64,000 nt of DNA from Escherichia phage RB49, in sequence record NC_005066.1; one strand, 5' to 3'. The position numbers and the translations under genes were made by a program. Positions 11,993-56,726 of this stretch are shown here, in pieces. Below the pieces are notes generated by a model, which saw only the letters and a program-made list of their open reading frames with translations, ran no database searches and was not told the origin of the DNA. The stretch's first letter is position 1, and each line of letters begins with the position of its first letter.

Positions 11993-12628
11993 TCAAGCGA
12001 ATGTAGAAAGCAAATGTTTTGTTTCTTTCAGTTGTCTTTCAAGATCTTTGCGTTTCTCTTTAAGTTGCATTTTAGCATTATTTCGCTGTTTTTCAACATC
12101 TTTATCGATGTGCTTAGTCCAATTATCAATATCAGAATAAGTTGGCATACCCAATTCTAAGCCTAATGCGGTTGGATACAGGGTAACAGTCCATAAACCG
12201 CTAATCTTCTTAAACAGGTCGGGGTGTAGTGTACTACCTACATCTTCCGGTGTCAACTCTTTTTCTTCTTTCAGTGGTGGGATCTCGTCATATGGTTCCA
12301 GTGCATTTACTTTAATATCAGATACCTCATCAAAGAATCCGCGTACATCCGCAGGAAATACACAAGCAATTTCCCAACCGTGATCACGCAGAGAAGTAAT
12401 ATTTTTCACTCCCCCACCATGTGTGATGATTGATGTGACATTGCCATCAAGGTCCACCGAATTTACGAGAAATGGCTTATCGTCTGTCAGATCATTATAA
12501 AACTGTGCTTCGGCTGTAGTCATCTCCAGAAACAGATCTCGGATCGGACGACCATCAGGTGCGTTACCTTCCTTGAGAGTATAAAAGCGACTTACGATCC
12601 ATTTTGGCGGTAAAGCATTAGCGATCAT
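11993..12628 (-). CDS. hypothetical protein
   Basis: 211 aa ORF between 61 and 41. Confidence 0.5.
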   Translation of the reverse strand: MIANALPPKWIVSRFYTLKEGNAPDGRPIRDLFLEMTTAEAQFYNDLTDDKPFLVNSVDLDGNVTSIITHGGGVKNITSLRDHGWEIACVFPADVRGFFDEVSDIKVNALEPYDEIPPLKEEKELTPEDVGSTLHPDLFKKISGLWTVTLYPTALGLELGMPTYSDIDNWTKHIDKDVEKQRNNAKMQLKEKRKDLERQLKETKHLLSTFA

Positions 12629-20470: not shown

Positions 20471-20565
20471 ATAATCACCTCTCACAAATTACATCATTAA
20501 AACGGGGAGTATTTACACTCCCCACAAACATTATATTAGTCGGTGTAGCTGGAGTCAAGGTCACA
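20471..20565 (-). promoter_or_regulatory. promoter (TTGACT-N17-TATAAT) plus leader hairpin for 44-62 operon
   Basis: promoter overlaps gene 45 3' end; leader hairpin GGGGAGTG..ACTCCCC. Confidence 0.5.
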
Positions 20566-29882: not shown

Positions 29883-30041
29883 TTACTTAATGATACTTAC
29901 TTTACCAGATCCGTGACAATGAGCACAACACCCATCACCACGCAATCCTGTTCCGTTACAGTGTTTACACTTCTTCAACGGTAAAGTCATTATAGCAAAT
30001 AAAGCAATAATGAACACCGAAACTAAATTCTCAATAATCAT
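29883..30041 (-). CDS. small membrane-anchored protein with two CxxCxGxG zinc-finger motifs (52 aa, below cutoff)
   Basis: hand-translated MIIENLVSVFIIALFAIMTLPLKKCKHCNGTGLRGDGCCAHCHGSGKVSIIK; GAGGG SD. Confidence 0.35.
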   Translation of the reverse strand: MIIENLVSVFIIALFAIMTLPLKKCKHCNGTGLRGDGCCAHCHGSGKVSIIK

Positions 30042-30300
30042 AAATCGCCCTCAGTTCTTTATAGCCTCCAATGTGCTCGTTGTCAATGAATATCTGGGGG
30101 TATACAAAACGGAGGCTCTTTGAGTTCAGCCTCCCCGCCAGTTCTTCAATCATATCACGGTCGGGAATAATGTCAACCCCGACCTGCTTGAATACTGGTT
30201 TAAGTGTATACGGAATACCCAGATCATCCAGTAGCTTCATTGCACTAATACAACCATAACAATGATAAGCCTCTTTCGGTATGCCGTATATCTCGATCAT
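30031..30300 (-). CDS. glutaredoxin-like redoxin (NrdH/NrdC-type)
   Basis: 89 aa; CYGC active site and C-terminal PQIFIDNEHIGGY glutaredoxin signature. Confidence 0.65.
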   Translation of the reverse strand: MIEIYGIPKEAYHCYGCISAMKLLDDLGIPYTLKPVFKQVGVDIIPDRDMIEELAGRLNSKSLRFVYPQIFIDNEHIGGYKELRAIYDY

Positions 30301-30773
30301 TTCTCAGCCTTTAATCTTTCTAGTTCTTCTTCCAGTTCCTTGATCCGTTGGTCACGTTCAAAGTCACGCTGTAGCTTAGTGGCGAATACTCGTTTAAACT
30401 GATTGTAATCATCGATTTTAAACACTTCTTCTTCGCCATAGCGACGCACAGAAACTTCGTAGTTATTGAAGAATTGTTGCATCATTGCTTCGGATGATAG
30501 TTCTGCTGATACCACTTTAAAATATTGATCTTCGGTAGGTGAAAACCAATTACAAGCATAAAGATAAACCTTTTCATTGTCTGGACACTGGTAAGCCTTA
30601 CCATCGATTTCAATCACAGAAACATATTCAGGTATACTAGATGAATCAATAGCTAAGACTTTAAACGCACGGTCCCCGATAAACTCGGAGATCACACGAT
30701 TCGCATCACTGGTTGCAAATGCTTTACGCGCTTGTTCGTTTTTCCACTGATAGGTCATACCAACAACAAACAT
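30297..30773 (-). CDS. repeat-domain paralog family protein (1 repeat + coiled-coil tail)
   Basis: motifs VGMTYQWKNE, IEIDGKAY, WFSPTEDQYF; ATG 30771-30773. Confidence 0.5.
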   Translation of the reverse strand: MFVVGMTYQWKNEQARKAFATSDANRVISEFIGDRAFKVLAIDSSSIPEYVSVIEIDGKAYQCPDNEKVYLYACNWFSPTEDQYFKVVSAELSSEAMMQQFFNNYEVSVRRYGEEEVFKIDDYNQFKRVFATKLQRDFERDQRIKELEEELERLKAEK

Positions 30774-30774
30774 A

Positions 30775-31599
30775 TTACCAACCTCGCTCTTTACCAATCA
30801 AAAATTCAACTTCACGACGTTTAATGTCTTCTTGAAGGTCTTTAATCTTCTGGCGATCTTGCATGATTTCATCCATCTTGTCAAGTGCCGCAATGAAATC
30901 ATCGAAACGTTCAAAGGTTTTACCTTCATTTGCTTCGCCAAATTTAACCATTGTCAGGCCGTAACGACTACTAAACAGACGTTTCAACTGTCCAACGATT
31001 TTAGAATCAGTGGTTATAACTTCCAATTCTTCTACTTCACGAAAGAATTTTCTATCAGAATCAATAAACCAGCTAGTTCCTTTATGGTCTCTATCTTCGG
31101 TTGCGCTCATTAGAGTATGGTCTTTACCATCAATTTCAATTACATCAATTTGCCCACATGGACGAACATTTTTAACAGTAAAAGGTCTATAATTTATTGC
31201 TCGTGCAATAACATAATTAAGATTAGATACGTTTTCAGCATAATGACAGAAGTCGGTCATAGCCTTATCATCTTTCCAAGTATAAGTTTTACCAACTTCC
31301 CATTTCTGGGGAACTTCTTCAACTTCACGAAAGAATTTTCTATCAAATGGACTAAAGAAATATGTTGCAGTCCAAATGTCTTTTCCTGTAGCAGTTTTCG
31401 CCGTATGATAAACACCGTCTAGCTCTATTGCATCAATCCAACCGTTACCCTCGATCTCGATGATGGTAAATGGCTTGTCACCAATAGCTGCACTGATATC
31501 GCTGTTAAGTGGAGAAAGAACACCTTCTCCGTTAGTAATAAACTCAGTTTTAGCGTTTTCATCTTTCCAAGTGTAAGTTTTACCAATTTCCCATTTCAT
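30775..31599 (-). CDS. repeat-domain paralog family protein (2 repeats)
   Basis: WEIGKTYTWKDE and WEVGKTYTWKDD; IELDGVYHT and IEIDGKDHT; DRKFFREVEE twice. Confidence 0.5.
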   Translation of the reverse strand: MKWEIGKTYTWKDENAKTEFITNGEGVLSPLNSDISAAIGDKPFTIIEIEGNGWIDAIELDGVYHTAKTATGKDIWTATYFFSPFDRKFFREVEEVPQKWEVGKTYTWKDDKAMTDFCHYAENVSNLNYVIARAINYRPFTVKNVRPCGQIDVIEIDGKDHTLMSATEDRDHKGTSWFIDSDRKFFREVEELEVITTDSKIVGQLKRLFSSRYGLTMVKFGEANEGKTFERFDDFIAALDKMDEIMQDRQKIKDLQEDIKRREVEFLIGKERGW

Positions 31600-31611
31600 A
31601 ATATATTCCCC

Positions 31612-32076
31612 TTAACCGATTTTATCAAGTTCGTTTAATGCTTTCTCAGCTTCCTGTATAGCTTGCACTCTTTCCGGCATTTTGTCAAGAAAATCTTTCA
31701 ACTCTTCAAAACTGGAGATATGACGCAAGGCGTTAGCACCGATAGCCGCATGTGATTTGCATTCAAAGCGGATTTTATAATTATCCATCGCCAATTTGAG
31801 AAGATCAATTAATTTAGATTCTTCTGGAATAATAATTTCTTCAAATCTGCTACGGTCATGATCCAGAAACCAACAAGATAGACCTACATCGGTTGAACTC
31901 ATATAAGTTCCATCATGAAGATAAACAGACCGCACGTATCCTTTTTTCGCATCAACCGACGCAACTTTAAACGGTAATCGCAGATATTTCAAATAATCAA
32001 CATCATACCATTTAAAAAATTGGTTTGCATCTTTTACATCTTTCCACGCATAGGTCTTACCAGCTTCCAATTTCAT
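31612..32076 (-). CDS. repeat-domain paralog family protein
   Basis: MKLEAGKTYAWKD, LHDGTYMS, WFLDHDRSRFEE. Confidence 0.5.
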   Translation of the reverse strand: MKLEAGKTYAWKDVKDANQFFKWYDVDYLKYLRLPFKVASVDAKKGYVRSVYLHDGTYMSSTDVGLSCWFLDHDRSRFEEIIIPEESKLIDLLKLAMDNYKIRFECKSHAAIGANALRHISSFEELKDFLDKMPERVQAIQEAEKALNELDKIG

Positions 32077-32080
32077 AATA

Positions 32081-32608
32081 TCATCTCTCATTTTTGATAC
32101 GTGATTCTAATTGGATCATACGGTCTCGCGTTTGTTTGTATTCTCGGATAGCACCGATCCGGCTAGGCATACCATCCAGTACGCTCTTAATACCTTCTAG
32201 GGTAGTAATTTTGGCAATGCTATTATGCAACCCCATCTTATCGATCAACTGAATGTCGTAGGCTTCCATAAGCAGACCCAGGCGTTCTAAAGTTAGGTCT
32301 TCTTCTTTTTCTTCTGAATCTGGAATCTTAGGTTCAATAGTAACTTCGGTAAAGAAACGACGCTCACCCGACCAAAACCACACACCGGAACAGCCAATAG
32401 GGGATTCTTTTAACGTCATAGAGTCGAAATTACTACCAATAATAGTAATTTCTCTAACATCACCATCATCGTCAAGGTCTTCTACCCTAAACGGGCGACC
32501 AGCCAACAAGTCAACAATACATCTGTTAATAGACGACGAAAATTTAGTCAGTTCGGCTTTCGACGCTTCGCATTCAATCTTGTAAGTTTTACCAACTTCC
32601 CATTCCAT
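32081..32608 (-). CDS. repeat-domain paralog family protein
   Basis: MEWEVGKTYK, WFWSGERRFFTEV; ATG 32606-32608 with GAGGTGA SD. Confidence 0.5.
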   Translation of the reverse strand: MEWEVGKTYKIECEASKAELTKFSSSINRCIVDLLAGRPFRVEDLDDDGDVREITIIGSNFDSMTLKESPIGCSGVWFWSGERRFFTEVTIEPKIPDSEEKEEDLTLERLGLLMEAYDIQLIDKMGLHNSIAKITTLEGIKSVLDGMPSRIGAIREYKQTRDRMIQLESRIKNER

Positions 32609-32618
32609 AATAATCACC

Positions 32619-33128
32619 TCAAATAATTTTCACTGGAATACTATTAACAATCTTGTATTGTACTTGATTGTCAGACCCCCGCCACGGCTTCTTCGTTGGC
32701 ATATCTTTAATATAACGCCCATCGATGAACATGTCAACTGATTCTACAATTTTTCTTTGCTCATCATTCAATTGGTCAAGGGTATAACCGGACCATAGCC
32801 AAATATCTTTATTTGGCATCCATGATTTTACTTCATCGATGATCCGCTGTACACCCTTTAAATTGCGTTTATACAGTGGATCGCCACCTAAGAATGTTAG
32901 CCCCTGAATAAAATCAGGTCTAAGCAGATCCAGAATCAATCCCATTGTATCATCGGTGAATGGTTCCCCGTTCTTAGGATTGAGTAGACTGGAATTAAAG
33001 CAACCATCACATGCGTGTGAACATCCGGTAACGTAAAGGGAGACTCTCACTCCCTCACCGTTAACCATATCACAATCTTTAATATCGGCATAGCGTAGTT
33101 TGCCGTATGTATCAGAACTCATATTCAA
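32619..33128 (-). CDS. nrdG: anaerobic ribonucleotide reductase activating protein (radical SAM)
   Basis: 169 aa; radical-SAM cysteine cluster CSHACDGC; collinear with T4 NrdG. Confidence 0.85.
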   Translation of the reverse strand: MNMSSDTYGKLRYADIKDCDMVNGEGVRVSLYVTGCSHACDGCFNSSLLNPKNGEPFTDDTMGLILDLLRPDFIQGLTFLGGDPLYKRNLKGVQRIIDEVKSWMPNKDIWLWSGYTLDQLNDEQRKIVESVDMFIDGRYIKDMPTKKPWRGSDNQVQYKIVNSIPVKII

Positions 33129-33264
33129 TTACCCCGAACTCGTTTACAATCTGCGCTTTATAGTAACCACCGCGAGATGCTAATATATAAGCTGGGCTTA
33201 GGTATTCGTATTCACGGATTTCTACTTGTGCGTTTTCAGTTTCCCAAATCAGTAAAGTCCACAT
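33112..33264 (-). CDS. small hypothetical protein (50 aa)
   Basis: ATG 33262-33264 (MWTLLIWETENAQ...) after promoter cassette. Confidence 0.3.
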   Translation of the reverse strand: MWTLLIWETENAQVEIREYEYLSPAYILASRGGYYKAQIVNEFGVIEYEF

Positions 33265-33339
33265 ATTTGATTCTCCTGTAAAGTTGTATCTCGTCTTGAT
33301 GAATATAGTATAGGGGATCTCGCGATCCCCGTCAAGCAT
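33265..33339 (-). promoter_or_regulatory. early-promoter/stem-loop cassette with palindromic spacer
   Basis: TTGACG-GGGATCGCGAGATCCCC-TATACT; the 17-nt spacer is a perfect palindrome. Confidence 0.5.
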
Positions 33340-33867
33340 TTATTTTAAATTTTTTCGAATGTATTCAGACCATTCCTTCCCTGTCAGTTCGGTCCCATTC
33401 TGGAAACTGAAATATTCATACGGCATCGAGTCAAGATAAAACAGGATCATACATCGCGCCATATAATACCAATCACGATTAAAGTAAACTACGTTATCGC
33501 CAGTACCATCAGCACCTTTATCATAACCATCGCGGGTACGGGCGACCCATTGAATGGTATCATTTTTCTCACGGATAGTAACAGGTTCCCAATATCCAGC
33601 ACATCCAGCATGACCACACGAACAAGTAAGGAAATATTGACCTTTTGCTTTGTTGTCATCCCATTCACGATGAATTGGTTTGATTTCGTGAAACAGTGCC
33701 AAACAATCATGATTATGCAACACTGGCTTACCATCAATCAATGCATGGAATGTATACAAACGACCCGTAGACAAATAGTTATCTTCTCGCTCTACAAGTT
33801 CAATAGCAATCTTTTTAGCTCGTTCTTTGTGTCGTTGTGCTTTACGCTTACGGTTTAATGATTTCAT
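33340..33867 (-). CDS. hypothetical Cys/His-rich protein
   Basis: 175 aa from ATG 33865-33867; CSCGHAGCAG cluster. Confidence 0.45.
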   Translation of the reverse strand: MKSLNRKRKAQRHKERAKKIAIELVEREDNYLSTGRLYTFHALIDGKPVLHNHDCLALFHEIKPIHREWDDNKAKGQYFLTCSCGHAGCAGYWEPVTIREKNDTIQWVARTRDGYDKGADGTGDNVVYFNRDWYYMARCMILFYLDSMPYEYFSFQNGTELTGKEWSEYIRKNLK

Positions 33868-33884
33868 ATTCACCTCACACATTA

Positions 33885-34424
33885 TCAAAGGTCGCGATAT
33901 AGTACATTATGAAAATGAGAACTTGCATTACCAATATTGTAGATAATAAATTCTTCATCCGGCGCTTGCGCTACAAATTGAGTATGAGCAACCGCCACAA
34001 CCTTAAAAATACGATCCGTGATCTTGTGTTTAATTTCTGCCCCTACTTCCATAGGAACATATTCATGTGTTTCTGTTTCAGTCGCAAAACAGCCATCTTC
34101 TTCATAAGCACGAACAAATCGATCGCAATCAGTACGCTTAACAAATTCAAGAGTATACAATTCTCGTGAATTGTCGGTATAAACCAACACAGAATTATTA
34201 TGATAGCGAATCACATACAGGTTATTATCATCGTCAATTACGCAAAAGCTACGGATTCCTTCGCCTTTACTCCAGCAGATATTAACCACCGTTCCTCTAA
34301 TAAAAAAACTTTCCTTTAAATTAAAACTAGTCAATGTGCTAGCGTGCATTTTAACAACAACACCATCGCCAATTTCCAGTTTACGAAGTTTAACTTCTTT
34401 GCTCAGTACACAAAACATCATCAT
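33885..34424 (-). CDS. hypothetical protein
   Basis: 179 aa ORF downstream of nrdD. Confidence 0.45.
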   Translation of the reverse strand: MMMFCVLSKEVKLRKLEIGDGVVVKMHASTLTSFNLKESFFIRGTVVNICWSKGEGIRSFCVIDDDNNLYVIRYHNNSVLVYTDNSRELYTLEFVKRTDCDRFVRAYEEDGCFATETETHEYVPMEVGAEIKHKITDRIFKVVAVAHTQFVAQAPDEEFIIYNIGNASSHFHNVLYRDL

Positions 34425-34490
34425 GTTGTCCTCTCGTTGTTTTCGATGTGAGCATTATACATTAGCTAATCATGTTGTCAACACCCCAAA
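34425..34490 (-). promoter_or_regulatory. early promoter (TTGACA-N16-TATAAT)
   Basis: minus strand promoter between nrdD terminator and next ORF. Confidence 0.5.
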
Positions 34491-34518
34491 ACGAAAAAGC
34501 CGACCCTTTCGGATCGGC
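34491..34518 (-). terminator. rho-independent terminator after nrdD
   Basis: hairpin GCCGATCC-GAAAGG-GTCGGC followed by U-run on minus strand. Confidence 0.6.
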
Positions 34519-34524
34519 TGAAAA

Positions 34525-36387
34525 TTACATGTGCTTAACGCGGTTTACCATCTCGGAGTGTTTCCCGTGGTTGAATGGACGCAGATCAACAGATCCAAGA
34601 TATCCACTAACGCGACGGATAACATTCATCTTTTCCAGATTGTCATTGCCGCAATCAGGACAAACAAAACCAGACTCGGTCGCTCTCATTTCCTTAGTAG
34701 ATCCGCATACATGACATACATCAGAAGGAGTATTAACACCGAAGTAGTGCAATTTATCCATTGCATAGTCTACTACAGTTTCAAGACCTTTCAGGTTGTT
34801 TTTCATGTCTGGGAACTCAACATAAGAGATCATGCCACCGGACGCCAGCCAGTGATAATCTTTCTCAAAGTCGATTTTCTCAAATGGAGTGACTTTCCGG
34901 TCTACGTCAAGGTGGAATGAGTTGGTGTACCAGTCTTTATCGGTAGCACCCTTAACAATACCAAATTGCTCTCGGTCCAGTCGATTAAATCGATAGCAAA
35001 GGCTCTCGGCTGGCGTACCGTAAAGACTAAACCCAAGTCCGGTTTCATCCTTCCATTTTTCAGTATAATGACGCAAGATCTTAAGAATATGTTTACCGTA
35101 TCGCTGCGCATCTTCCGAATCAAACGGATGAACACCAAACAGGACGCTCAATACCTCATGTAAACCAATATATCCAAGAGAGATACTAGCGCGACCATCT
35201 TTCAGAACTTCCAAAATTTCATCGTTTTGATGAATACGGAAAAATGCACCTTCTGTATACAGTACAGGAGCAACATTGGCTTTAGCCCCTTTTAAAGCGT
35301 CTACGCGACTCATGAGCGCATCAAAGCAAATAGGCATACGATTAGCTAGCTCTTGTTCGAATAGCTCAATTCTGCGCATTACAGACGCTTTACCAGCACG
35401 ACGCGCGGCAATAAGGGCAATACGCGGAAGATTTAGAGTCACAACACCTAAGTTATTACGTCCGTCTAATACTTCTTCGCCTTTCTCATTATGCCACACA
35501 CCCAGGAAGCTACGACAACCCATCGGGCTAACCGGAACACTAGATCCGGTGATACTACGGTTATTCTTCGCAGAGATATAATCAGGGTAAAGACGCTTAC
35601 TAGAACATTCCAATGCAAGTTGCTTAATGTCGTAGTTCGGATCTTCTGGTTTAAGGTTTAATCCTTCTTCTAAGAACATCACCAGCTTAGGAAACACCGG
35701 AGTTATACCATCTTTACCTAAACCTTTAGTTCGAACTTTCAGGATCGCTTTCTGAATCAGTTTTTCTTCCCAGCTAGTACCCATACCAAAGGTTAAAGTC
35801 ACAAAAGGCGTTTGACCGTTGGTGGAGAACAAAGTGTTGATCTCATATTCCAACGCCTGATATCCGTCTAACGTTTCTTTTTCTGTCTTCTCTTGTGCAT
35901 AGAGAGTATCAGCTTTGATTCCGTAGGTTTCGGCATCAGCAAGGTGTTTATGATATGTTTTCTTAACATACGGTGCTAACACCTGATCGATGTTTGCAAT
36001 TGTGGTCCCGCCATATTGATGACTTGCCACCTGTGCGATAATTTGAGCGGTTACAGCACATGCAACACCGATCGATTTAGGACTTTCGATTTGTGCGCTA
36101 CCCAATTTAAAACCATTCTCTAACATGTCTTTGAGATTAACAAGACAGCAGTTAGTAAACGGCATAGCGGGTGCATAATCCATATCATGATAATGAATAT
36201 CACCATCTACATGCGCTTTATAGATGTGCTCAGGTAACACGGTTTTAGCAATCTGTTTAGACACAGCGCCAGCAATCAGATCTCGACGTGTCGGGAATGT
36301 TCGCGCGTCTTTGTTCGCGTTCTCTTTACTTACTTCGTTTTCTTTACCCGTTGCGATCTCTGTAATGTCTTTGATTAGTTTTTCCAT
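34525..36387 (-). CDS. nrdD: anaerobic ribonucleoside-triphosphate reductase (glycyl radical enzyme)
   Basis: 620 aa; C-terminal zinc ribbon CHVCGS..CPDCG and glycyl radical motif RVSGYLG; uninterrupted ORF. Confidence 0.92.
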   Translation of the reverse strand: MEKLIKDITEIATGKENEVSKENANKDARTFPTRRDLIAGAVSKQIAKTVLPEHIYKAHVDGDIHYHDMDYAPAMPFTNCCLVNLKDMLENGFKLGSAQIESPKSIGVACAVTAQIIAQVASHQYGGTTIANIDQVLAPYVKKTYHKHLADAETYGIKADTLYAQEKTEKETLDGYQALEYEINTLFSTNGQTPFVTLTFGMGTSWEEKLIQKAILKVRTKGLGKDGITPVFPKLVMFLEEGLNLKPEDPNYDIKQLALECSSKRLYPDYISAKNNRSITGSSVPVSPMGCRSFLGVWHNEKGEEVLDGRNNLGVVTLNLPRIALIAARRAGKASVMRRIELFEQELANRMPICFDALMSRVDALKGAKANVAPVLYTEGAFFRIHQNDEILEVLKDGRASISLGYIGLHEVLSVLFGVHPFDSEDAQRYGKHILKILRHYTEKWKDETGLGFSLYGTPAESLCYRFNRLDREQFGIVKGATDKDWYTNSFHLDVDRKVTPFEKIDFEKDYHWLASGGMISYVEFPDMKNNLKGLETVVDYAMDKLHYFGVNTPSDVCHVCGSTKEMRATESGFVCPDCGNDNLEKMNVIRRVSGYLGSVDLRPFNHGKHSEMVNRVKHM

Positions 36388-36432
36388 TGTATCACCTATG
36401 AAAAAGCGGGATTTTCTCCCGCTCGTTGATAG

Positions 36433-36927
36433 TTATTTTACCAGTTCTGCTAATTCTTTTTCTTTAGCTTCTAGTTCAGCTTTAAGCTGTTTAATCTCTT
36501 GTCGCTTCTTATTAGCGGCTTCTTGCTTACTATTTCGGATAACCTGATCTAGATACAACTCCCAATCCTGAATATTTTTGATAATGTAACCGTCAACATT
36601 AATTGGTCGGAGATTCAGTACAGCTTCCAGTTTAGTTGCAAAAACTTTAATTGCTGGGGTGAAGTATTCATATTCGTTATCTTCAAACCAATAACCTAGA
36701 CTTGCATTATCAATACGAAGACGAAGTTCAAGATCAAGGTCTTTATCTTCGGTGTATAGGTCTTTTACACACCCCATAGAATTAACAACAACTTTAAAAC
36801 GAATTTTATCTACACCACCAAACACATCAGTAAGGATACCAGCAATTGAGCTATTAGCGCAAGATTGGTCGCTGAATGCGTCAAGGTTTTCTTTAGTTAC
36901 AGTATACCAAACATCTTGTACCCACAT
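36433..36927 (-). CDS. hypothetical protein with C-terminal coiled coil
   Basis: 164 aa; tail KQLKAELEAKEKELAELVK resembles tails of the paralog family. Confidence 0.45.
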   Translation of the reverse strand: MWVQDVWYTVTKENLDAFSDQSCANSSIAGILTDVFGGVDKIRFKVVVNSMGCVKDLYTEDKDLDLELRLRIDNASLGYWFEDNEYEYFTPAIKVFATKLEAVLNLRPINVDGYIIKNIQDWELYLDQVIRNSKQEAANKKRQEIKQLKAELEAKEKELAELVK

Positions 36928-36981
36928 AATATAATCCTCTCGTTGTTAAGTGGGAGTATTATAGCATACTCCCTTTGCATG
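36928..36981 (-). promoter_or_regulatory. early-promoter/stem-loop cassette
   Basis: TTGACA-N16-TATAAT with GGGAGTA/TACTCCC inverted repeat around the -10. Confidence 0.5.
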
Positions 36982-38160
36982 TCAAGCACTAACTTTTTTC
37001 TTTACTGCTTTCACCTTCTGGCGAATTGCTCGAATCTCTTCGATCTCTTTTTCAGTCTCTTTAACAATTTCTTTGCGATTCTGAATATCTGTATCGAGAT
37101 TATCATCAAGTTTAGGCAGCATGTCAATCAAGAACTTTTTAAAGTCTTTCAGGTTTCGGATAACAGCACCTTCACCCATTACCGCCACACCAACACCATC
37201 CGGCAGATCACCAAACAGTTTAACCAGTTCAGACAGATGATCATGGTCTTCTAATGCTTCCTCCGGTTCAGATGGCAGTTCAACAAAGTTATAACGTTCA
37301 TCATTGCTGATCAAGTGATACCAGCAAAGCCCGAAAGATTTCGGTGTATATTCTACACCATCAATTTCAACCGCGTCAACACTTCCATAATCATCTACTT
37401 TAGTTACCTTAAATCCTTGTCCCAGCTTTTGAACAATTTCAACAACATGACTTGATACAGTTTCAGCGGTAAACCAATATGGCAAATTATGCTGATTTGG
37501 CTTGTAGCGTTCACCTACTTTAAATCTCTGACCATCCGCTTGCATAGCATGAAATTGTTGTTTCGTGATTTCCGCGAAGTATTCAAATTCGCCACCATCA
37601 AACACACAAGCCCATTGATCACAAAAACGATCTGCCTTAACAGTTTCACCTTTCGCGGTGATCATGGTAGCCGATCCGTGCAATTCTTCTTCAACCAAAA
37701 AGCCATATTCGACAAAATCAACAAGTTTCATGGCTTCTTTGTGCTCTGGGTCATGCTCTCCCCAGAATCGCTTAAATTCTTGCAAACCTTCTGGTGTAAA
37801 CGAATAACATTTACCTTTTTCAAAGTAAGTCGGCATTACATCCTCTTTCTTGTTCATCGCTTCGTATGCCTCTTTTGAGATGCGTTTAAAGTATTTACGC
37901 TCATCGTGCATAATCATAGTAGCCCAATAATAAACGATATCCTCAGCGGAATAAACTACATCTCCAGCTTCAATAGTAATAACATGACCGTGGTCATCTT
38001 TTTCTAATACTTTAAAGCCCTTTTCGACGATTTCAGCAACCCGAATATGACCACGGCGCGAAGCATCGGTCAGAATAATTGAATAGCGAGAAAAGTCTAG
38101 AAACTCATCTTTACCACCTTCACGGAATGCATAGTAATGACCTTCAAAGAATTTAGCCAT
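36982..38160 (-). CDS. repeat-domain paralog family protein (3 repeats)
   Basis: 392 aa; three copies of the G-K/E-x-Y ... D-G ... D-E-R-[KY]-[YN]-F module. Confidence 0.5.
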   Translation of the reverse strand: MAKFFEGHYYAFREGGKDEFLDFSRYSIILTDASRRGHIRVAEIVEKGFKVLEKDDHGHVITIEAGDVVYSAEDIVYYWATMIMHDERKYFKRISKEAYEAMNKKEDVMPTYFEKGKCYSFTPEGLQEFKRFWGEHDPEHKEAMKLVDFVEYGFLVEEELHGSATMITAKGETVKADRFCDQWACVFDGGEFEYFAEITKQQFHAMQADGQRFKVGERYKPNQHNLPYWFTAETVSSHVVEIVQKLGQGFKVTKVDDYGSVDAVEIDGVEYTPKSFGLCWYHLISNDERYNFVELPSEPEEALEDHDHLSELVKLFGDLPDGVGVAVMGEGAVIRNLKDFKKFLIDMLPKLDDNLDTDIQNRKEIVKETEKEIEEIRAIRQKVKAVKKKVSA

Positions 38161-38216
38161 AATATAATCCTCTCGTTGTTTAAATGGGAGTATCTTACTA
38201 CTCCCGTTTCATCATG
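38161..38216 (-). promoter_or_regulatory. early-promoter/stem-loop cassette
   Basis: TTGACA-N17-TAAGAT with GGGAGTAG/ATACTCCC inverted repeat. Confidence 0.5.
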
Positions 38217-38783
38217 TCAAGCGTTAAATGACTTTTGGATCTCTTTCAGTTCAGCTACTTTATCGGCGCTGAATTTAGCGTAGGTATCATGTCGAATAAT
38301 TTCACTTTCAAGAAAGGTTTCCAGCCGAGATCTATTTTCAATAAGGAACTCTTTCAGGTCTTCCGCGTTCTTGATAAAGATTTTATTGTCAGTAATGTCA
38401 TCTTCAATCGCAAAGGAGATAGAGCGAACTTTACCAAACAAGTTAATCAGATCTTCCAGAGATTCTTCTTTCTTAACTGGTTTCATTTCTTCAAACTGCT
38501 TTTTAGTGATGCGTTTAAAGTATTTGCGCTCGCTTACATCAATCATGATTGACGCACCCTCATAATCATGAGTTTCGACCAAATACACTTTACCCATAAC
38601 ATTAACAGTTAGAACTTTAAAGCCCTTGTGAAGCACACCATACAGGAACTTGTTATGTTGTGGATAGCGTTTAACAAATTCCTCTGCGGACTCAGCATTA
38701 CGGAAAGTGTAATAACGACCTCGTTCAAAAACAGCATCAGTTGAAGACTTAGCCGGATACAATTTATACGTTTTCTGTACCAT
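38217..38783 (-). CDS. repeat-domain paralog family protein
   Basis: 188 aa from ATG 38781-38783; YFERGRYYTFRNAESAEEF and SERKYFKRI. Confidence 0.5.
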   Translation of the reverse strand: MVQKTYKLYPAKSSTDAVFERGRYYTFRNAESAEEFVKRYPQHNKFLYGVLHKGFKVLTVNVMGKVYLVETHDYEGASIMIDVSERKYFKRITKKQFEEMKPVKKEESLEDLINLFGKVRSISFAIEDDITDNKIFIKNAEDLKEFLIENRSRLETFLESEIIRHDTYAKFSADKVAELKEIQKSFNA

Positions 38784-38797
38784 AATATAATCCTCTA

Positions 38798-39070
38798 TCA
38801 TTTCACTAATTGAACAGCACGAAACAGAATGCGGTCACACGGAAGAAGCATAAATTCCCAACGCGGATCAAAGTCTTTAGCGGTATATGTTTTCCCATCA
38901 ACCGAGATTTCACTTACATAACCAATAGGTGACAATTTAAGAACAGTAAACCCATTCTTGATGACTTCGTAGGTATCTTTCAAACCTTCGTAGTCATCCT
39001 CTAAGAAGTCTTTACGTGCTTGCTCAGATTTAAAAACATAGGCCACACCGGATTTAAACATCTTACGCAT
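38798..39070 (-). CDS. repeat-domain paralog family protein (single repeat)
   Basis: 90 aa; FKSGVAYVFKSEQARKDF, ISVDGKTYTAKDF. Confidence 0.5.
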   Translation of the reverse strand: MRKMFKSGVAYVFKSEQARKDFLEDDYEGLKDTYEVIKNGFTVLKLSPIGYVSEISVDGKTYTAKDFDPRWEFMLLPCDRILFRAVQLVK

Positions 39071-39133
39071 TGTTGATTCTCCTTCTTGATTAGATGGGAG
39101 TATTTTACTACTCCCATTTCATGCTGTCAACTA
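39071..39133 (-). promoter_or_regulatory. early-promoter/stem-loop cassette
   Basis: TTGACA-N17-TAAAAT with GGGAGTAG/TACTCCC inverted repeat. Confidence 0.5.
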
Positions 39134-56134: not shown

Positions 56135-56473
56135 TCACACCTTTAAAGTCATAGACGCATAAACATTAATGCCAGGCCAGTTAGGATCGCAATTATACTC
56201 AACATCCCACAAATAAAGCGGTTTAGATGTATCAGCCAAGTTTTTAAAATCTTCTACCCACATTTCAAGGCTATATGATGGATAAACTAGGCTATCATAT
56301 CCGCCGTAACGTTGGCCTACTGGTCGGTCAGTAAAAACTACCTCAAGATCCGGTAATTCTTTTTCAAGGATAACCGCCAGCGCATAAATAAGACGGTCTT
56401 CCTTGTTACGCTGCCGAAGGACCGTTGTCAGTTGGTTTTTCTGGTTCACTAGCAAGCACCTCCACATTTTCAC
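56135..56473 (-). CDS. hypothetical protein
   Basis: 112 aa ORF; start uncertain (overlaps upstream ORF). Confidence 0.4.
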   Translation of the reverse strand: MKMWRCLLVNQKNQLTTVLRQRNKEDRLIYALAVILEKELPDLEVVFTDRPVGQRYGGYDSLVYPSYSLEMWVEDFKNLADTSKPLYLWDVEYNCDPNWPGINVYASMTLKV

Positions 56474-56726
56474 AGAATGAAATTTTCACAGACACAATTT
56501 TACCATAAGTGAAGAATGAATATACATTATCGATATATTCAACGTCACCTACAATCACATCAAACTGCGGATCAGCAACCGCCGCAACATATTCTACCAG
56601 TTCATCAAGAGAATGCAACTTAATTTCATCAATTCGGCTGTATTTGGTTGCATCTTTGATTTTAAAACCACGTTCTTTCAGCTTATCAATTAGAATTTCA
56701 CGCGGAGTTTCAAACAGTTTGCTCAT
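56406..56726 (-). CDS. hypothetical protein
   Basis: 106 aa; GAGGATTATATT-ATG initiation region. Confidence 0.45.
   Translation of the reverse strand: MSKLFETPREILIDKLKERGFKIKDATKYSRIDEIKLHSLDELVEYVAAVADPQFDVIVGDVEYIDNVYSFFTYGKIVSVKISFCENVEVLASEPEKPTDNGPSAA

What the first reader, a model, noticed from the sequence alone, without database searches (positions are those of the whole stretch)
30297..39070. Expanded paralogous family of repeat-domain proteins flanking the nrdG/nrdD module
Eight ORFs (30297-30773, 30775-31599, 31612-32076, 32081-32608, 36982-38160, 38217-38783, 38798-39070 and possibly 36433-36927) share a ~80-aa module present in 1-3 copies per protein. The module has three conserved blocks: an N-terminal [W/F]-E-[VI]-G-K-T-Y-x-W-K-[DN] block, a central I-E-[IL]-D-G-x-x-[HY]-T block, and a W-F-x-x-x-[DE]-R-[KR]-[FY]-F-x-E-[VI] block. 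Most end in a charged coiled-coil tail. Nearly 5 kb of coding capacity in an early region goes to one unrecognised, internally duplicated family, which suggests a diversifying host-interaction function (a defence-decoy or receptor-like role is pure speculation). Several members carry their own promoter cassette.
Basis: seen in the sequence. Interest (0 to 1): 0.7.

Follow-up and report, generated by a model that had tools for sequence, protein, structure and literature searches.

The report
Expanded GoF-family genes around phage nrdD
The repeated ~90-residue module is real, but it is the N-terminal small beta-barrel domain of the T4 GoF/Frd.2 early-protein family described in 2025; this RB49-like coliphage carries nine such genes (twelve modules) against three in T4, and what the family does is still unknown.

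Summary
Observation confirmed and extended. The window is a Krischvirus (RB49/Phi1-like T4-type coliphage, 96-98% identical). All eight ORFs, including the doubtful one at 36433-36927, carry one to three copies of a ~90-aa module. In leave-one-protein-out profile tests each module scores 18-59 bits, against at most 9 bits for 500 shuffles. A ninth member lies at 11993-12628, beside helicase gene 41.

The family is not unrecognised. A profile of the modules hits T4 GoF (E 4e-12; hhalign probability 96%) and Frd.2. This is the "LSm-like fold" family of Kim et al. 2025. AlphaFold2 gives a confident SH3-like barrel (pLDDT 90). [quoted passage not shown]

That paper does not mention four things seen here:
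- the threefold expansion relative to T4;
- tandem modules within one protein;
- a shared helical C-terminal domain, absent from the T4 proteins;
- recurring positions next to nrdD, nrdG and nrdH in other T4-like phages.

Three members have identical-type promoter/stem-loop (PeSL) cassettes. Among six Krischviruses the genes evolve 4-60 times faster at non-synonymous sites than neighbouring core genes, yet dN/dS stays at 0.19-0.40, so they are functional. Function is inferred only: non-enzymatic early binding proteins, possibly acting on mRNA stability. Interest is moderate.

The parts
38798..39070 (-). H: 90 aa, a single module with no C-terminal tail (phrog_16115)
   Evidence: 47 bits in the leave-one-out test
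38217..38783 (-). G: 188 aa, one module (aa ~17-100; the only clearly basic module, pI 9.3) plus the helical tail; phrog_8944 'goF mRNA metabolism modulator'
36982..38160 (-). F: 392 aa, three tandem modules (F1 37861-38160, F2 37543-37839, F3 37255-37542) plus the helical tail (36982-37254); annotated frd.2 in Phi1
36433..36927 (-). E: 164 aa, the most divergent module plus a charged tail (phrog_15067)
   Evidence: 18.3 bits in the leave-one-out test against at most 6.8 bits for shuffles; tail profile E 2e-10
32081..32608 (-). D: 175 aa, module plus tail (phrog_5347). AlphaFold2 model: barrel at residues 1-93, disordered linker, helices at 101-116, 137-145 and 148-174
31612..32076 (-). C: 154 aa, module plus tail (phrog_5347)
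30775..31599 (-). B: 274 aa, two tandem modules (B1 31309-31599, B2 31021-31308; 50% identical to each other) plus tail. Phage AV108 has a one-module allele
30297..30773 (-). A: 158 aa, module plus tail (phrog_5347). Its stop overlaps the start of nrdH
11993..12628 (-). I: a ninth family member outside the finding. 211 aa, one module (aa ~8-105) and a charged C-terminal helix. It lies directly downstream of helicase gene 41 (phrog_16187)
39096..39130 (-). PeSL-type promoter/stem-loop cassette upstream of H (TTGACA, 17 nt, TAAAAT; GGGAGTA/ACTCCC hairpin around the -10)
38186..38220 (-). PeSL-type cassette upstream of F (TTGACA, 17 nt, TAAGAT; same hairpin)
36952..36985 (-). PeSL-type cassette upstream of E (TTGACA, 16 nt, TATAAT with TG; same hairpin). 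It overlaps the stop codon of F
34525..36387 (-). nrdD (context): anaerobic ribonucleotide reductase large subunit, uninterrupted here
32619..33122 (-). nrdG (context): activating subunit. D, C, B and A follow it and end at nrdH (30031-30300)

Best explanation
SHOWN. The nine genes are paralogues of the T4 GoF/Frd.2 family of T4-type phage early proteins. Each protein has one to three copies of a ~90-residue SH3-like small beta-barrel: beta1, two inserted helices, then beta2 to beta5. This is the FeoA-like topology that Kim et al. called 'LSm-like'. In seven proteins the modules are followed by a flexible linker and a shared helical domain that ends in a long, highly charged helix.

SHOWN. The conserved residues are hydrophobic core positions plus one Glu-Arg pair. 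There is no catalytic-type motif, so these look like binding proteins, not enzymes.

INFERRED from sequence. The genes are transcribed early by host sigma-70 RNA polymerase, either from PeSL cassettes (H+G, F, E) or by read-through from the nrdD/nrdG units (D, C, B, A).

INFERRED from T4 genetics, not shown here. The modules bind RNA or a component of the host RNA-handling machinery (Rho, the degradosome or RNA polymerase) and adjust the survival of phage pre-replicative transcripts. The terminal helix oligomerises the protein, and tandem modules add valency. The paralogues have diverged in surface, and so probably in target.
For: Identity
- A profile of the window's modules hits T4 GoF residues 4-91 (40 bits, E 4e-12 at T4-proteome scale), Frd.2 (E 2e-4) and MotB.1 (E 8e-3). 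These three are the only hits in 150 kb of T4.
- hhalign: GoF probability 96%, E 3e-9; Frd.2 probability 90%, E 2e-6.
- T4 GoF and Frd.2 belong to phrog_622, which A, B, C, D, F, G and H also hit.

Fold
- AlphaFold2 model of module B2: pLDDT 90.4, pTM 0.82.
- Foldseek against BFVD: 55 viral matches at E<=1e-3; nearly all of those with an organism name (about half of the 50 listed) are T4-like phages.

Functional genes
- dN/dS is 0.19-0.40 across six Krischvirus genomes.
- Synteny is conserved in 57 genomes.

Early expression
- 10-12 of 12 sigma-70 consensus matches in the cassettes before H, F and E.
- PeSLs were shown to be active promoters/terminators in RB49/Phi1 by Arbiol et al. 2010 (PMC2839356).

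RNA link
- T4 goF mutants D25Y and G84R rescue growth on rho(nusD) hosts, and GoF(D25Y) stabilises the gene 41 leader RNA post-transcriptionally.
- G84 aligns to a K/R-rich column beside the family-conserved Arg. T4 GoF lacks this Arg; 9 of 12 modules here have it.

Oligomerisation
- GoF and MotB.1 run partly as dimers.
- A long terminal helix is predicted in D.
Against: - No function is known for any wild-type member. Wild-type GoF and MotB.1 had little effect in the RNA reporter assay, and T4 mutants lacking goF (deletion or amber), motB.1 (deletion or amber) or frd.2 (amber) grow normally.
- 10 of the 12 modules are acidic (pI 4.2-6.1), which does not suit a general RNA binder.
- Expression timing, oligomerisation and any binding partner are all untested here.
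Confidence: 0.5

Rival explanations
1. The modules are protein-protein adaptors with no link to RNA. In this reading, acidic SH3/Tudor-like domains dock onto host proteins (for example RNA polymerase, proteases, or defence or stress factors) to take over the host or to act as anti-defence decoys. The paralogues would have diversified to follow variable host targets.
For: - Most modules are acidic.
- Structural neighbours include protein-binding small barrels: FeoA, the Mind-bomb repeat, the PcrA/UvrD C-terminal Tudor domain that binds RNA polymerase, CarD, and KOW domains.
- Wild-type GoF shows no RNA effect.
- The genes lie in a hyperplastic region with PeSL cassettes. Non-synonymous rates are 4-60 times those of core neighbours, synonymous divergence is also raised (pointing to allele exchange), and module copy number is polymorphic.
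Against: - There is no significant hit to any defence-related model.
- Gene-wide dN/dS is below 1, so no positive selection has been shown.
- The only phenotype known for the family concerns mRNA level.
- No partner was seen in the GoF pull-downs apart from GoF itself.
Confidence: 0.3
2. The proteins are accessory factors of the anaerobic ribonucleotide reductase module, for example FeoA-like iron, redox or assembly helpers for NrdD/NrdG/NrdH. That would explain why they sit next to those genes.
For: - Family members lie between nrdG and nrdH, or upstream of gp49-nrdD, in Krischvirus, Klebsiella phage Roth23, Citrobacter phage Xman (Pseudotevenvirus) and two uncultured T4-like contigs.
- FeoA is the top structural match.
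Against: - T4's three members are not near nrdD/nrdG, and the ninth member here is next to gene 41.
- Aeromonas phage Asswx_1 has nrdD-nrdG-nrdH with no member at the locus.
- No Cys/His metal-binding motif is conserved.
- The nrdD region is a known PeSL-associated plastic locus, so co-location may reflect only where non-essential genes accumulate.
- Similarity to FeoA is at fold level only (10-15% identity, no Pfam hit).
Confidence: 0.07
3. The shared blocks come from composition bias or chance, and the ORFs are not a true family.
For: Pairwise identities are low (13-38%, apart from B1/B2 at 50%).
Against: - Leave-one-out profile scores are 18-59 bits against at most 9 bits for shuffles.
- An independent member was found outside the training set.
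- External homologues exist.
- The common predicted fold is confident.
Confidence: 0.01

Closest known systems
T4 GoF (ComC-alpha), Frd.2 and MotB.1: the 'LSm-like fold' family of Tevenvirinae early proteins (Kim et al. 2025, PMC12152347)
   Same: - The ~90-aa N-terminal module is homologous (profile and hhalign hits, shared PHROGs).
- The predicted five-stranded small barrel and its FeoA-like structural neighbours are the same.
- The genes are small, acidic, apparently non-essential early-region genes of T4-type phages.
- The layout is an N-terminal domain, a linker and a C-terminal domain.
   Different: - Nine genes and twelve modules here, against three single-module genes in T4.
- Tandem arrays of two and three modules within one protein.
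- A shared helical/charged C-terminal domain that the T4 proteins lack.
- The host phage is a Krischvirus, outside the subfamily Tevenvirinae.
- The genes cluster around nrdD/nrdG instead of at the T4 positions (next to gene 39, motB and frd).
- The link to MotB.1 is weak (hhalign probability 36%).
FeoA and the C-terminal SH3-like domain of DtxR/IdeR
   Different: Identity is only 8-17%. There is no Pfam FeoA hit and no conserved metal-binding residues. The resemblance is at fold level only.
Hfq/Sm (LSm) RNA chaperones
   Same: They share a bent five-stranded antiparallel sheet, and the T4 goF(D25Y) phenotype concerns RNA stability.
PeSL regulatory cassettes of RB49/Phi1 (Arbiol et al. 2010, PMC2839356; Comeau et al. 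2014, PMC4122927)
   Same: A strong sigma-70-like promoter is combined with a stem-loop, in hyperplastic regions, and nrdD is named as a PeSL-associated gene. The cassettes before H, F and E fit this description.
   Different: These are regulatory DNA elements, not the protein family. The papers read here do not mention the paralogue family.

Membership tests
GoF/Frd.2/MotB.1 phage 'LSm-like fold' family (Kim et al. 2025) | Sequence-profile homology of the ~85-90-aa N-terminal domain to T4 GoF and Frd.2 | tested here: met
   HMM of the 12 modules: GoF E 4e-12, Frd.2 E 2e-4. hhalign probability 96% and 90%. Shared phrog_622, phrog_3710 and phrog_5347.
GoF/Frd.2/MotB.1 phage 'LSm-like fold' family (Kim et al. 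2025) | Homology to the MotB.1 branch | tested here: inconclusive
   HMM E 8e-3, covering only the first half of the module. hhalign probability 36%. MotB.1 is in a different PHROG (phrog_2333).
GoF/Frd.2/MotB.1 phage 'LSm-like fold' family (Kim et al. 2025) | Predicted bent five-stranded antiparallel beta-sheet domain whose nearest solved folds are FeoA-type SH3-like domains | tested here: met
GoF/Frd.2/MotB.1 phage 'LSm-like fold' family (Kim et al. 2025) | N-terminal domain joined by a flexible linker to a variable C-terminal domain | tested here: met
   In the model of D the barrel covers residues 1-93, low-confidence stretches lie at 95-105 and 118-133, and C-terminal helices follow. The C-terminal domain is not homologous to those of T4 GoF or Frd.2.
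GoF/Frd.2/MotB.1 phage 'LSm-like fold' family (Kim et al. 2025) | Early expression in a T4-type phage | tested here: inconclusive
   Sigma-70 consensus promoters precede H, F and E, and the genome is a T4-type Krischvirus. No expression data were available.
GoF/Frd.2/MotB.1 phage 'LSm-like fold' family (Kim et al. 2025) | Effect on mRNA level or stability (known only for the GoF D25Y mutant) | not testable with these tools
   This needs a reporter assay or an RNA half-life assay.
Hfq/Sm (LSm) proteins | Sm1/Sm2 sequence motifs, an N-terminal helix followed by five strands, and a ring oligomer | tested here: not met
FeoA (Pfam PF04023) | A sequence match to the FeoA profile | tested here: not met
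PeSL promoter/stem-loop cassettes (Arbiol et al. 2010) | A strong sigma-70-like promoter combined with a stem-loop, in intergenic gaps of hyperplastic regions | tested here: met
   TTGACA, 16-17 nt, a -10 hexamer, and a GGGAGTA/ACTCCC hairpin lie before H, F and E. The hairpin motif occurs at 4 sites in the window (7 matches counting both strands), against 0 expected. Promoter and terminator activity were not tested here.

The most novel reading that the evidence does not exclude
The Krischvirus paralogues may be the naturally 'active' form of a function that T4 GoF shows only after its rho-suppressor mutations.

Nine of the twelve modules carry the family Arg in the E-R-[KR]-[FY]-F block. T4 GoF has E-A-G-F-F there, and its G84R suppressor restores a basic residue. 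Five of the twelve modules have an aromatic residue at the position equivalent to GoF D25, where the suppressor is D25Y.

If this is right, the cluster would be a multi-paralogue, multivalent and oligomeric system that protects pre-replicative phage transcripts, or counteracts Rho or nucleases. It would sit at an old, conserved locus next to nrdG/nrdH across several T4-like genera.
Probability: 0.15. Interest if true: 0.6.

Novelty: new variant of a known kind. Interest (0 to 1): 0.4.

Why it matters
GoF has been an unexplained T4 gene since the rho(nusD) suppressor work. The family was recognised only in 2025, and no wild-type function is known.

A phage that devotes about 5.4 kb (3% of its genome) to nine diverged paralogues, some with two or three tandem modules, offers three things for working out what the domain binds:
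- natural sequence variation;
- a clear conserved patch (the Glu-Arg pair and an aromatic residue);
- a genetic target, namely deletion of the whole cluster.

The recurrence of the family next to nrdG/nrdH in distant T4-like phages shows the locus is old. It is not a recent Krischvirus oddity.

For annotation, five 'hypothetical proteins' per Krischvirus genome in this region, plus the one beside gene 41, can be assigned to the GoF family. The label 'mRNA metabolism modulator' should be treated as unproven.

Tried and rejected
- Pfam, NCBIfam and PADLOC scans gave only sub-threshold noise.
- A profile search of PDB sequences found nothing significant.
- An Rfam scan of the whole window found nothing.
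- The search for related loci with the module alignment failed, because no stretch was conserved enough.
- The word-indexed protein search returned only 10 close relatives. The exhaustive HMMER search was used instead. It returned 90 representatives, of which roughly a dozen are giant repetitive proteins; the three read in full (P0017, P0023, P0052) match only part of the profile many times, and I reject these as artefacts.
- The tail profile did not hit T4 GoF, Frd.2 or MotB.1, so the C-terminal domain is not part of the T4 family definition.
- tblastn with the three-module metagenomic protein P0034 found no isolate phage.
- T4 gp61.2, which occupies the same position as member I, is not detectably related.
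- ORF 56406-56726 gave a borderline partial hit (E 0.01) and was not counted.
- No further members were found in Phi1 63-163 kb.
- A strict Hfq/Sm assignment was considered and rejected (see the membership test).
- Gene-wide positive selection was tested with Nei-Gojobori estimates and not found. Site-wise tests were not run.

Full report
WHAT THE WINDOW IS

The 9.2-kb region is 96-98% identical to 57 sequenced Krischvirus genomes. These are RB49/Phi1/JSE-like T4-type coliphages of the family Straboviridae, outside the subfamily Tevenvirinae. All genes in the region are on the - strand.

Read in the direction of transcription, the order is: dam, nrdC, gene 49, H, G, F, E, nrdD, two unrelated ORFs, a small ORF, nrdG, D, C, B, A, nrdH, then 55.2 and gene 55.

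CHECKING THE OBSERVATION

Their starts match the Phi1 RefSeq annotation, except for H, where Phi1 annotates a longer 306-nt ORF.

I cut out eleven ~90-residue segments and aligned them. Three columns are invariant (Tyr, Phe, Phe) and three more nearly so (Phe, Val, Gly).

A profile of these segments, run over a six-frame translation of the whole window, recovered every member. It also found one gene that was not in the training set, at 11993-12628 (E 2e-7). This gene encodes a 211-aa protein directly downstream of helicase gene 41.

I then left each protein out of the profile in turn. Its modules scored 18-59 bits, while 500 shuffles of the same residues never exceeded 9 bits. The weakest real scores were E at 18.3 bits and F2 at 20.9 bits.

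So the family is real. The doubtful ORF at 36433-36927 belongs to it. The count is 11 modules in 8 genes in the region and 12 modules in 9 genes in the window.

The C-terminal parts are not merely charged: they are homologous in A-G (E 1e-10 to 1e-27). H is a bare module. The tail of I is charged and predicted helical in the alignment, but it is not significantly similar to the others.

WHAT THE MODULE IS

Curated libraries give nothing (Pfam, NCBIfam, PADLOC). PHROGs place the proteins in phrog_5347, 8944, 16115, 15067 and 16187, with cross-hits to phrog_622, 3710, 13003 and 2980. Several of these are labelled 'goF mRNA metabolism modulator'.

[quoted passage not shown] The window-only profile hits:
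- GoF residues 4-91 at 40 bits (E 4e-12 for a T4-sized proteome);
- Frd.2 at E 2e-4;
- MotB.1 at E 8e-3.

Profile-sequence hhalign gives 96% probability (E 3e-9) for GoF, 90% (E 2e-6) for Frd.2, and only 36% for MotB.1. T4 GoF and Frd.2 are themselves members of phrog_622.

This is the family described by Kim, Tai, Hinton and colleagues in 2025 (PMC12152347). They describe N-terminal 'LSm-like' beta-barrel domains in three T4 early proteins, with FeoA-type SH3-like domains as the nearest solved structures.

MY STRUCTURE PREDICTIONS AGREE

Module B2, predicted with the 12-module alignment, gives pLDDT 90.4 and pTM 0.82. Its elements in order are beta1, two helices, beta2, beta3, beta4, a short helix and beta5.

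The full-length D model shows the barrel, a low-confidence linker, and C-terminal helices ending in a 27-residue helix.

Foldseek against predicted viral structures finds 55 matches at E<=1e-3. About half of the 50 listed carry an organism name, and nearly all of those are T4-like phages of Enterobacterales and Aeromonas.

The exhaustive HMMER search of 1.84 billion representatives finds only 90 hits. Roughly a dozen are giant repetitive proteins; the three I read in full match only part of the profile many times, and I reject these as artefacts. The rest are small proteins with one to three modules.

HOW THIS PHAGE DIFFERS FROM T4

[quoted passage not shown] Scanning the rest of a Krischvirus genome (Phi1, 63-163 kb) finds no further member.

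So the genus has nine genes and twelve modules, all inside this window, against three single-module genes in T4. None sits at the T4 positions.

The modules are old paralogues, 13-38% identical to one another; only B1 and B2 reach 50%. This is about as far apart as they are from T4 GoF and Frd.2. They fall into two positional groups:
- F1, F2, F3, G and H, upstream of nrdD;
- A, B1, B2, C and D, downstream of nrdG, which group with GoF and I.

This pattern points to local tandem duplication, both of genes and of modules within genes.

The paper by Kim et al. does not mention RB49, Krischvirus, paralogues or tandem modules. The PeSL paper does not mention the family.

VARIATION AND SELECTION

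All five Krischvirus genomes whose locus I fetched keep the eight genes in order. Phage AV108 has a one-module B.

Nei-Gojobori estimates over six genomes:

| Genes | Mean amino-acid identity | dN | dS | dN/dS |
|---|---|---|---|---|
| Family genes | 82-93% (minimum 63%) | 0.03-0.14 | 0.15-0.58 | 0.19-0.40 |
| gp49, nrdD, nrdG, nrdH, gp55 | 98-99% | 0.002-0.008 | 0.07-0.12 | 0.03-0.13 |

The genes are therefore under purifying selection, so they are functional. They are much less constrained than their neighbours. The raised dS suggests exchange of diverged alleles. The two unrelated ORFs between nrdD and nrdG behave in the same way, so part of this signal belongs to the hyperplastic region as a whole.

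POSITION NEXT TO THE nrd GENES RECURS

- An uncultured T4-like contig (L013) has five adjacent genes with two or three modules each, immediately upstream of gp49-nrdD-nrdG-glutaredoxin.
- Another contig (L014) has a two-module gene abutting nrdH.
- Klebsiella phage Roth23 and Citrobacter phage Xman (Pseudotevenvirus) each have a ~310-320-aa gene with two divergent modules directly after nrdG.
- Aeromonas phage Asswx_1 has none at this locus, and T4 has none there.

REGULATION

H, F and E are each preceded by a ~60-bp cassette with TTGACA, 16-17 nt, and a -10 hexamer in the loop of a GGGAGTA/ACTCCC hairpin. A conserved leader and Shine-Dalgarno sequence follow, nearly identical before F and E and more diverged before H. 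That hairpin motif occurs at only four sites in the 64 kb, where none is expected by chance.

This matches the PeSL cassettes of RB49/Phi1, which Arbiol et al. showed to act as promoters and terminators, and which they link to nrdD.

G, D, C, B and A have gaps of only 1-14 nt before them and no promoter-like site in those gaps. They are probably co-transcribed with the upstream genes.

HOW IT MOST LIKELY WORKS

Shown: this is a non-enzymatic-looking small-barrel module (only core residues and a Glu-Arg pair are conserved), present in one to three copies, with a shared helical tail.

Inferred: early expression, oligomerisation through the terminal helix, and binding of a macromolecular partner.

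The only functional data for the family come from T4:
- the goF D25Y and G84R mutations suppress the T4 growth defect on rho(nusD) hosts;
- GoF(D25Y), but not wild-type GoF or MotB.1, stabilises a gene 41 leader reporter RNA.

My alignment adds one lead. G84 falls on a column that is K or R in 45 of the 103 modules that have a residue there. It lies next to the family's conserved Arg, which T4 GoF lacks (E-A-G-F-F against E-R-K-[FY]-F); 9 of the 12 modules here have that Arg. D25 is the position three residues after the conserved Phe, and it is aromatic in 22 of 112 family modules and in 5 of 12 here. So both suppressors move GoF towards residues that are common in its relatives.

This is suggestive only. 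Against a simple RNA-binding role, 10 of the 12 modules are acidic.

I therefore put the RNA-metabolism reading first but only at moderate confidence. A protein-adaptor/host-takeover reading is close behind, and an nrd-accessory role is a distant third.

VERDICT

The interpretation 'unrecognised family' is out of date, and the decoy/receptor idea is untested.

The locus is an expanded, architecturally distinct branch of a recently named phage family whose function is still unknown. It is worth a moderate score, mainly as a handle on the old goF problem.

Noticed in passing
window 11993-12628 (-): A ninth family member lies outside the finding. It encodes 211 aa, with one module and a charged C-terminal helix, directly downstream of helicase gene 41. 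The only known phenotype in the family (T4 GoF D25Y) concerns gene 41 mRNA, so the position is a curious coincidence. T4 gp61.2, at the equivalent position, is not detectably related.
   Followed up: partly
window 36952-36985, 38186-38220, 39096-39130 (-); also 20505-20522: Three near-identical PeSL-type cassettes precede E, F and H: a sigma-70 promoter whose -10 hexamer sits in the loop of a GGGAGTA/ACTCCC hairpin. A fourth copy of the hairpin motif at 20505-20522 was not examined.
   Followed up: partly
alignment of T4 GoF (L002:1343-1768) with the window modules: The T4 goF suppressor G84R falls on a K/R-rich column beside the family-conserved Arg, which wild-type GoF lacks. D25Y falls on a position that is aromatic in 5 of 12 modules here and in 22 of 112 family-wide. 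Both mutations make GoF more like its relatives.
   Followed up: partly
window 33340-33867 and 33885-34424 (-): Two unrelated ORFs of unknown function between nrdD and nrdG (phrog_8242, phrog_14838) are as variable among Krischviruses as the family genes (minimum identity 50-57%, dN/dS 0.22-0.28). The second follows a terminator-like hairpin (34498-34519) and a perfect 12/12 sigma-70 promoter match (34454-34481).
   Followed up: partly
L013:7920-13569 (uncultured T4-like contig, SRR14300940): Five adjacent genes with two or three GoF-type modules each lie upstream of gp49 and an nrdD gene split by a homing-endonuclease-like insertion. The contig has no close relative among 50,697 phage records. 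It appears to be an independent or parallel expansion at the same locus.
   Followed up: partly
L015:10562-11521 (Klebsiella phage Roth23); L016:10559-11488 (Citrobacter phage Xman): A ~310-320-aa 'hypothetical protein' directly after nrdG carries two divergent GoF-type modules, in the same nrdG-nrdH interval as D-A here.
   Followed up: partly
L004:9510-10043 (Escherichia phage AV108): The B orthologue has one module (177 aa) instead of two. Module number is therefore polymorphic within the genus.
   Followed up: yes
window 56406-56726 (-): A 106-aa ORF (phrog_16584) gives a borderline partial match to the module profile (E 0.01, profile positions 27-57 only). It was not counted as a member and remains unresolved.
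   Followed up: no
proteins P0017, P0023, P0052: Three giant repetitive proteins that I read in full (two adhesin-like proteins and one apparent wrong-frame repeat translation) reach E 1e-6 to 1e-17 by summing many partial matches to the F-x-V...D-G-x-V part of the profile. This is a trap for automated family expansion.
   Followed up: yes
window 36388-36432 (-), between E and nrdD: A hairpin, GCGGGA-GAAAA-TCCCGC, followed by TTTTT sits just upstream of the nrdD start. It is a possible terminator or attenuator separating the E transcript from nrdD. The consensus scan did not list it.
   Followed up: no
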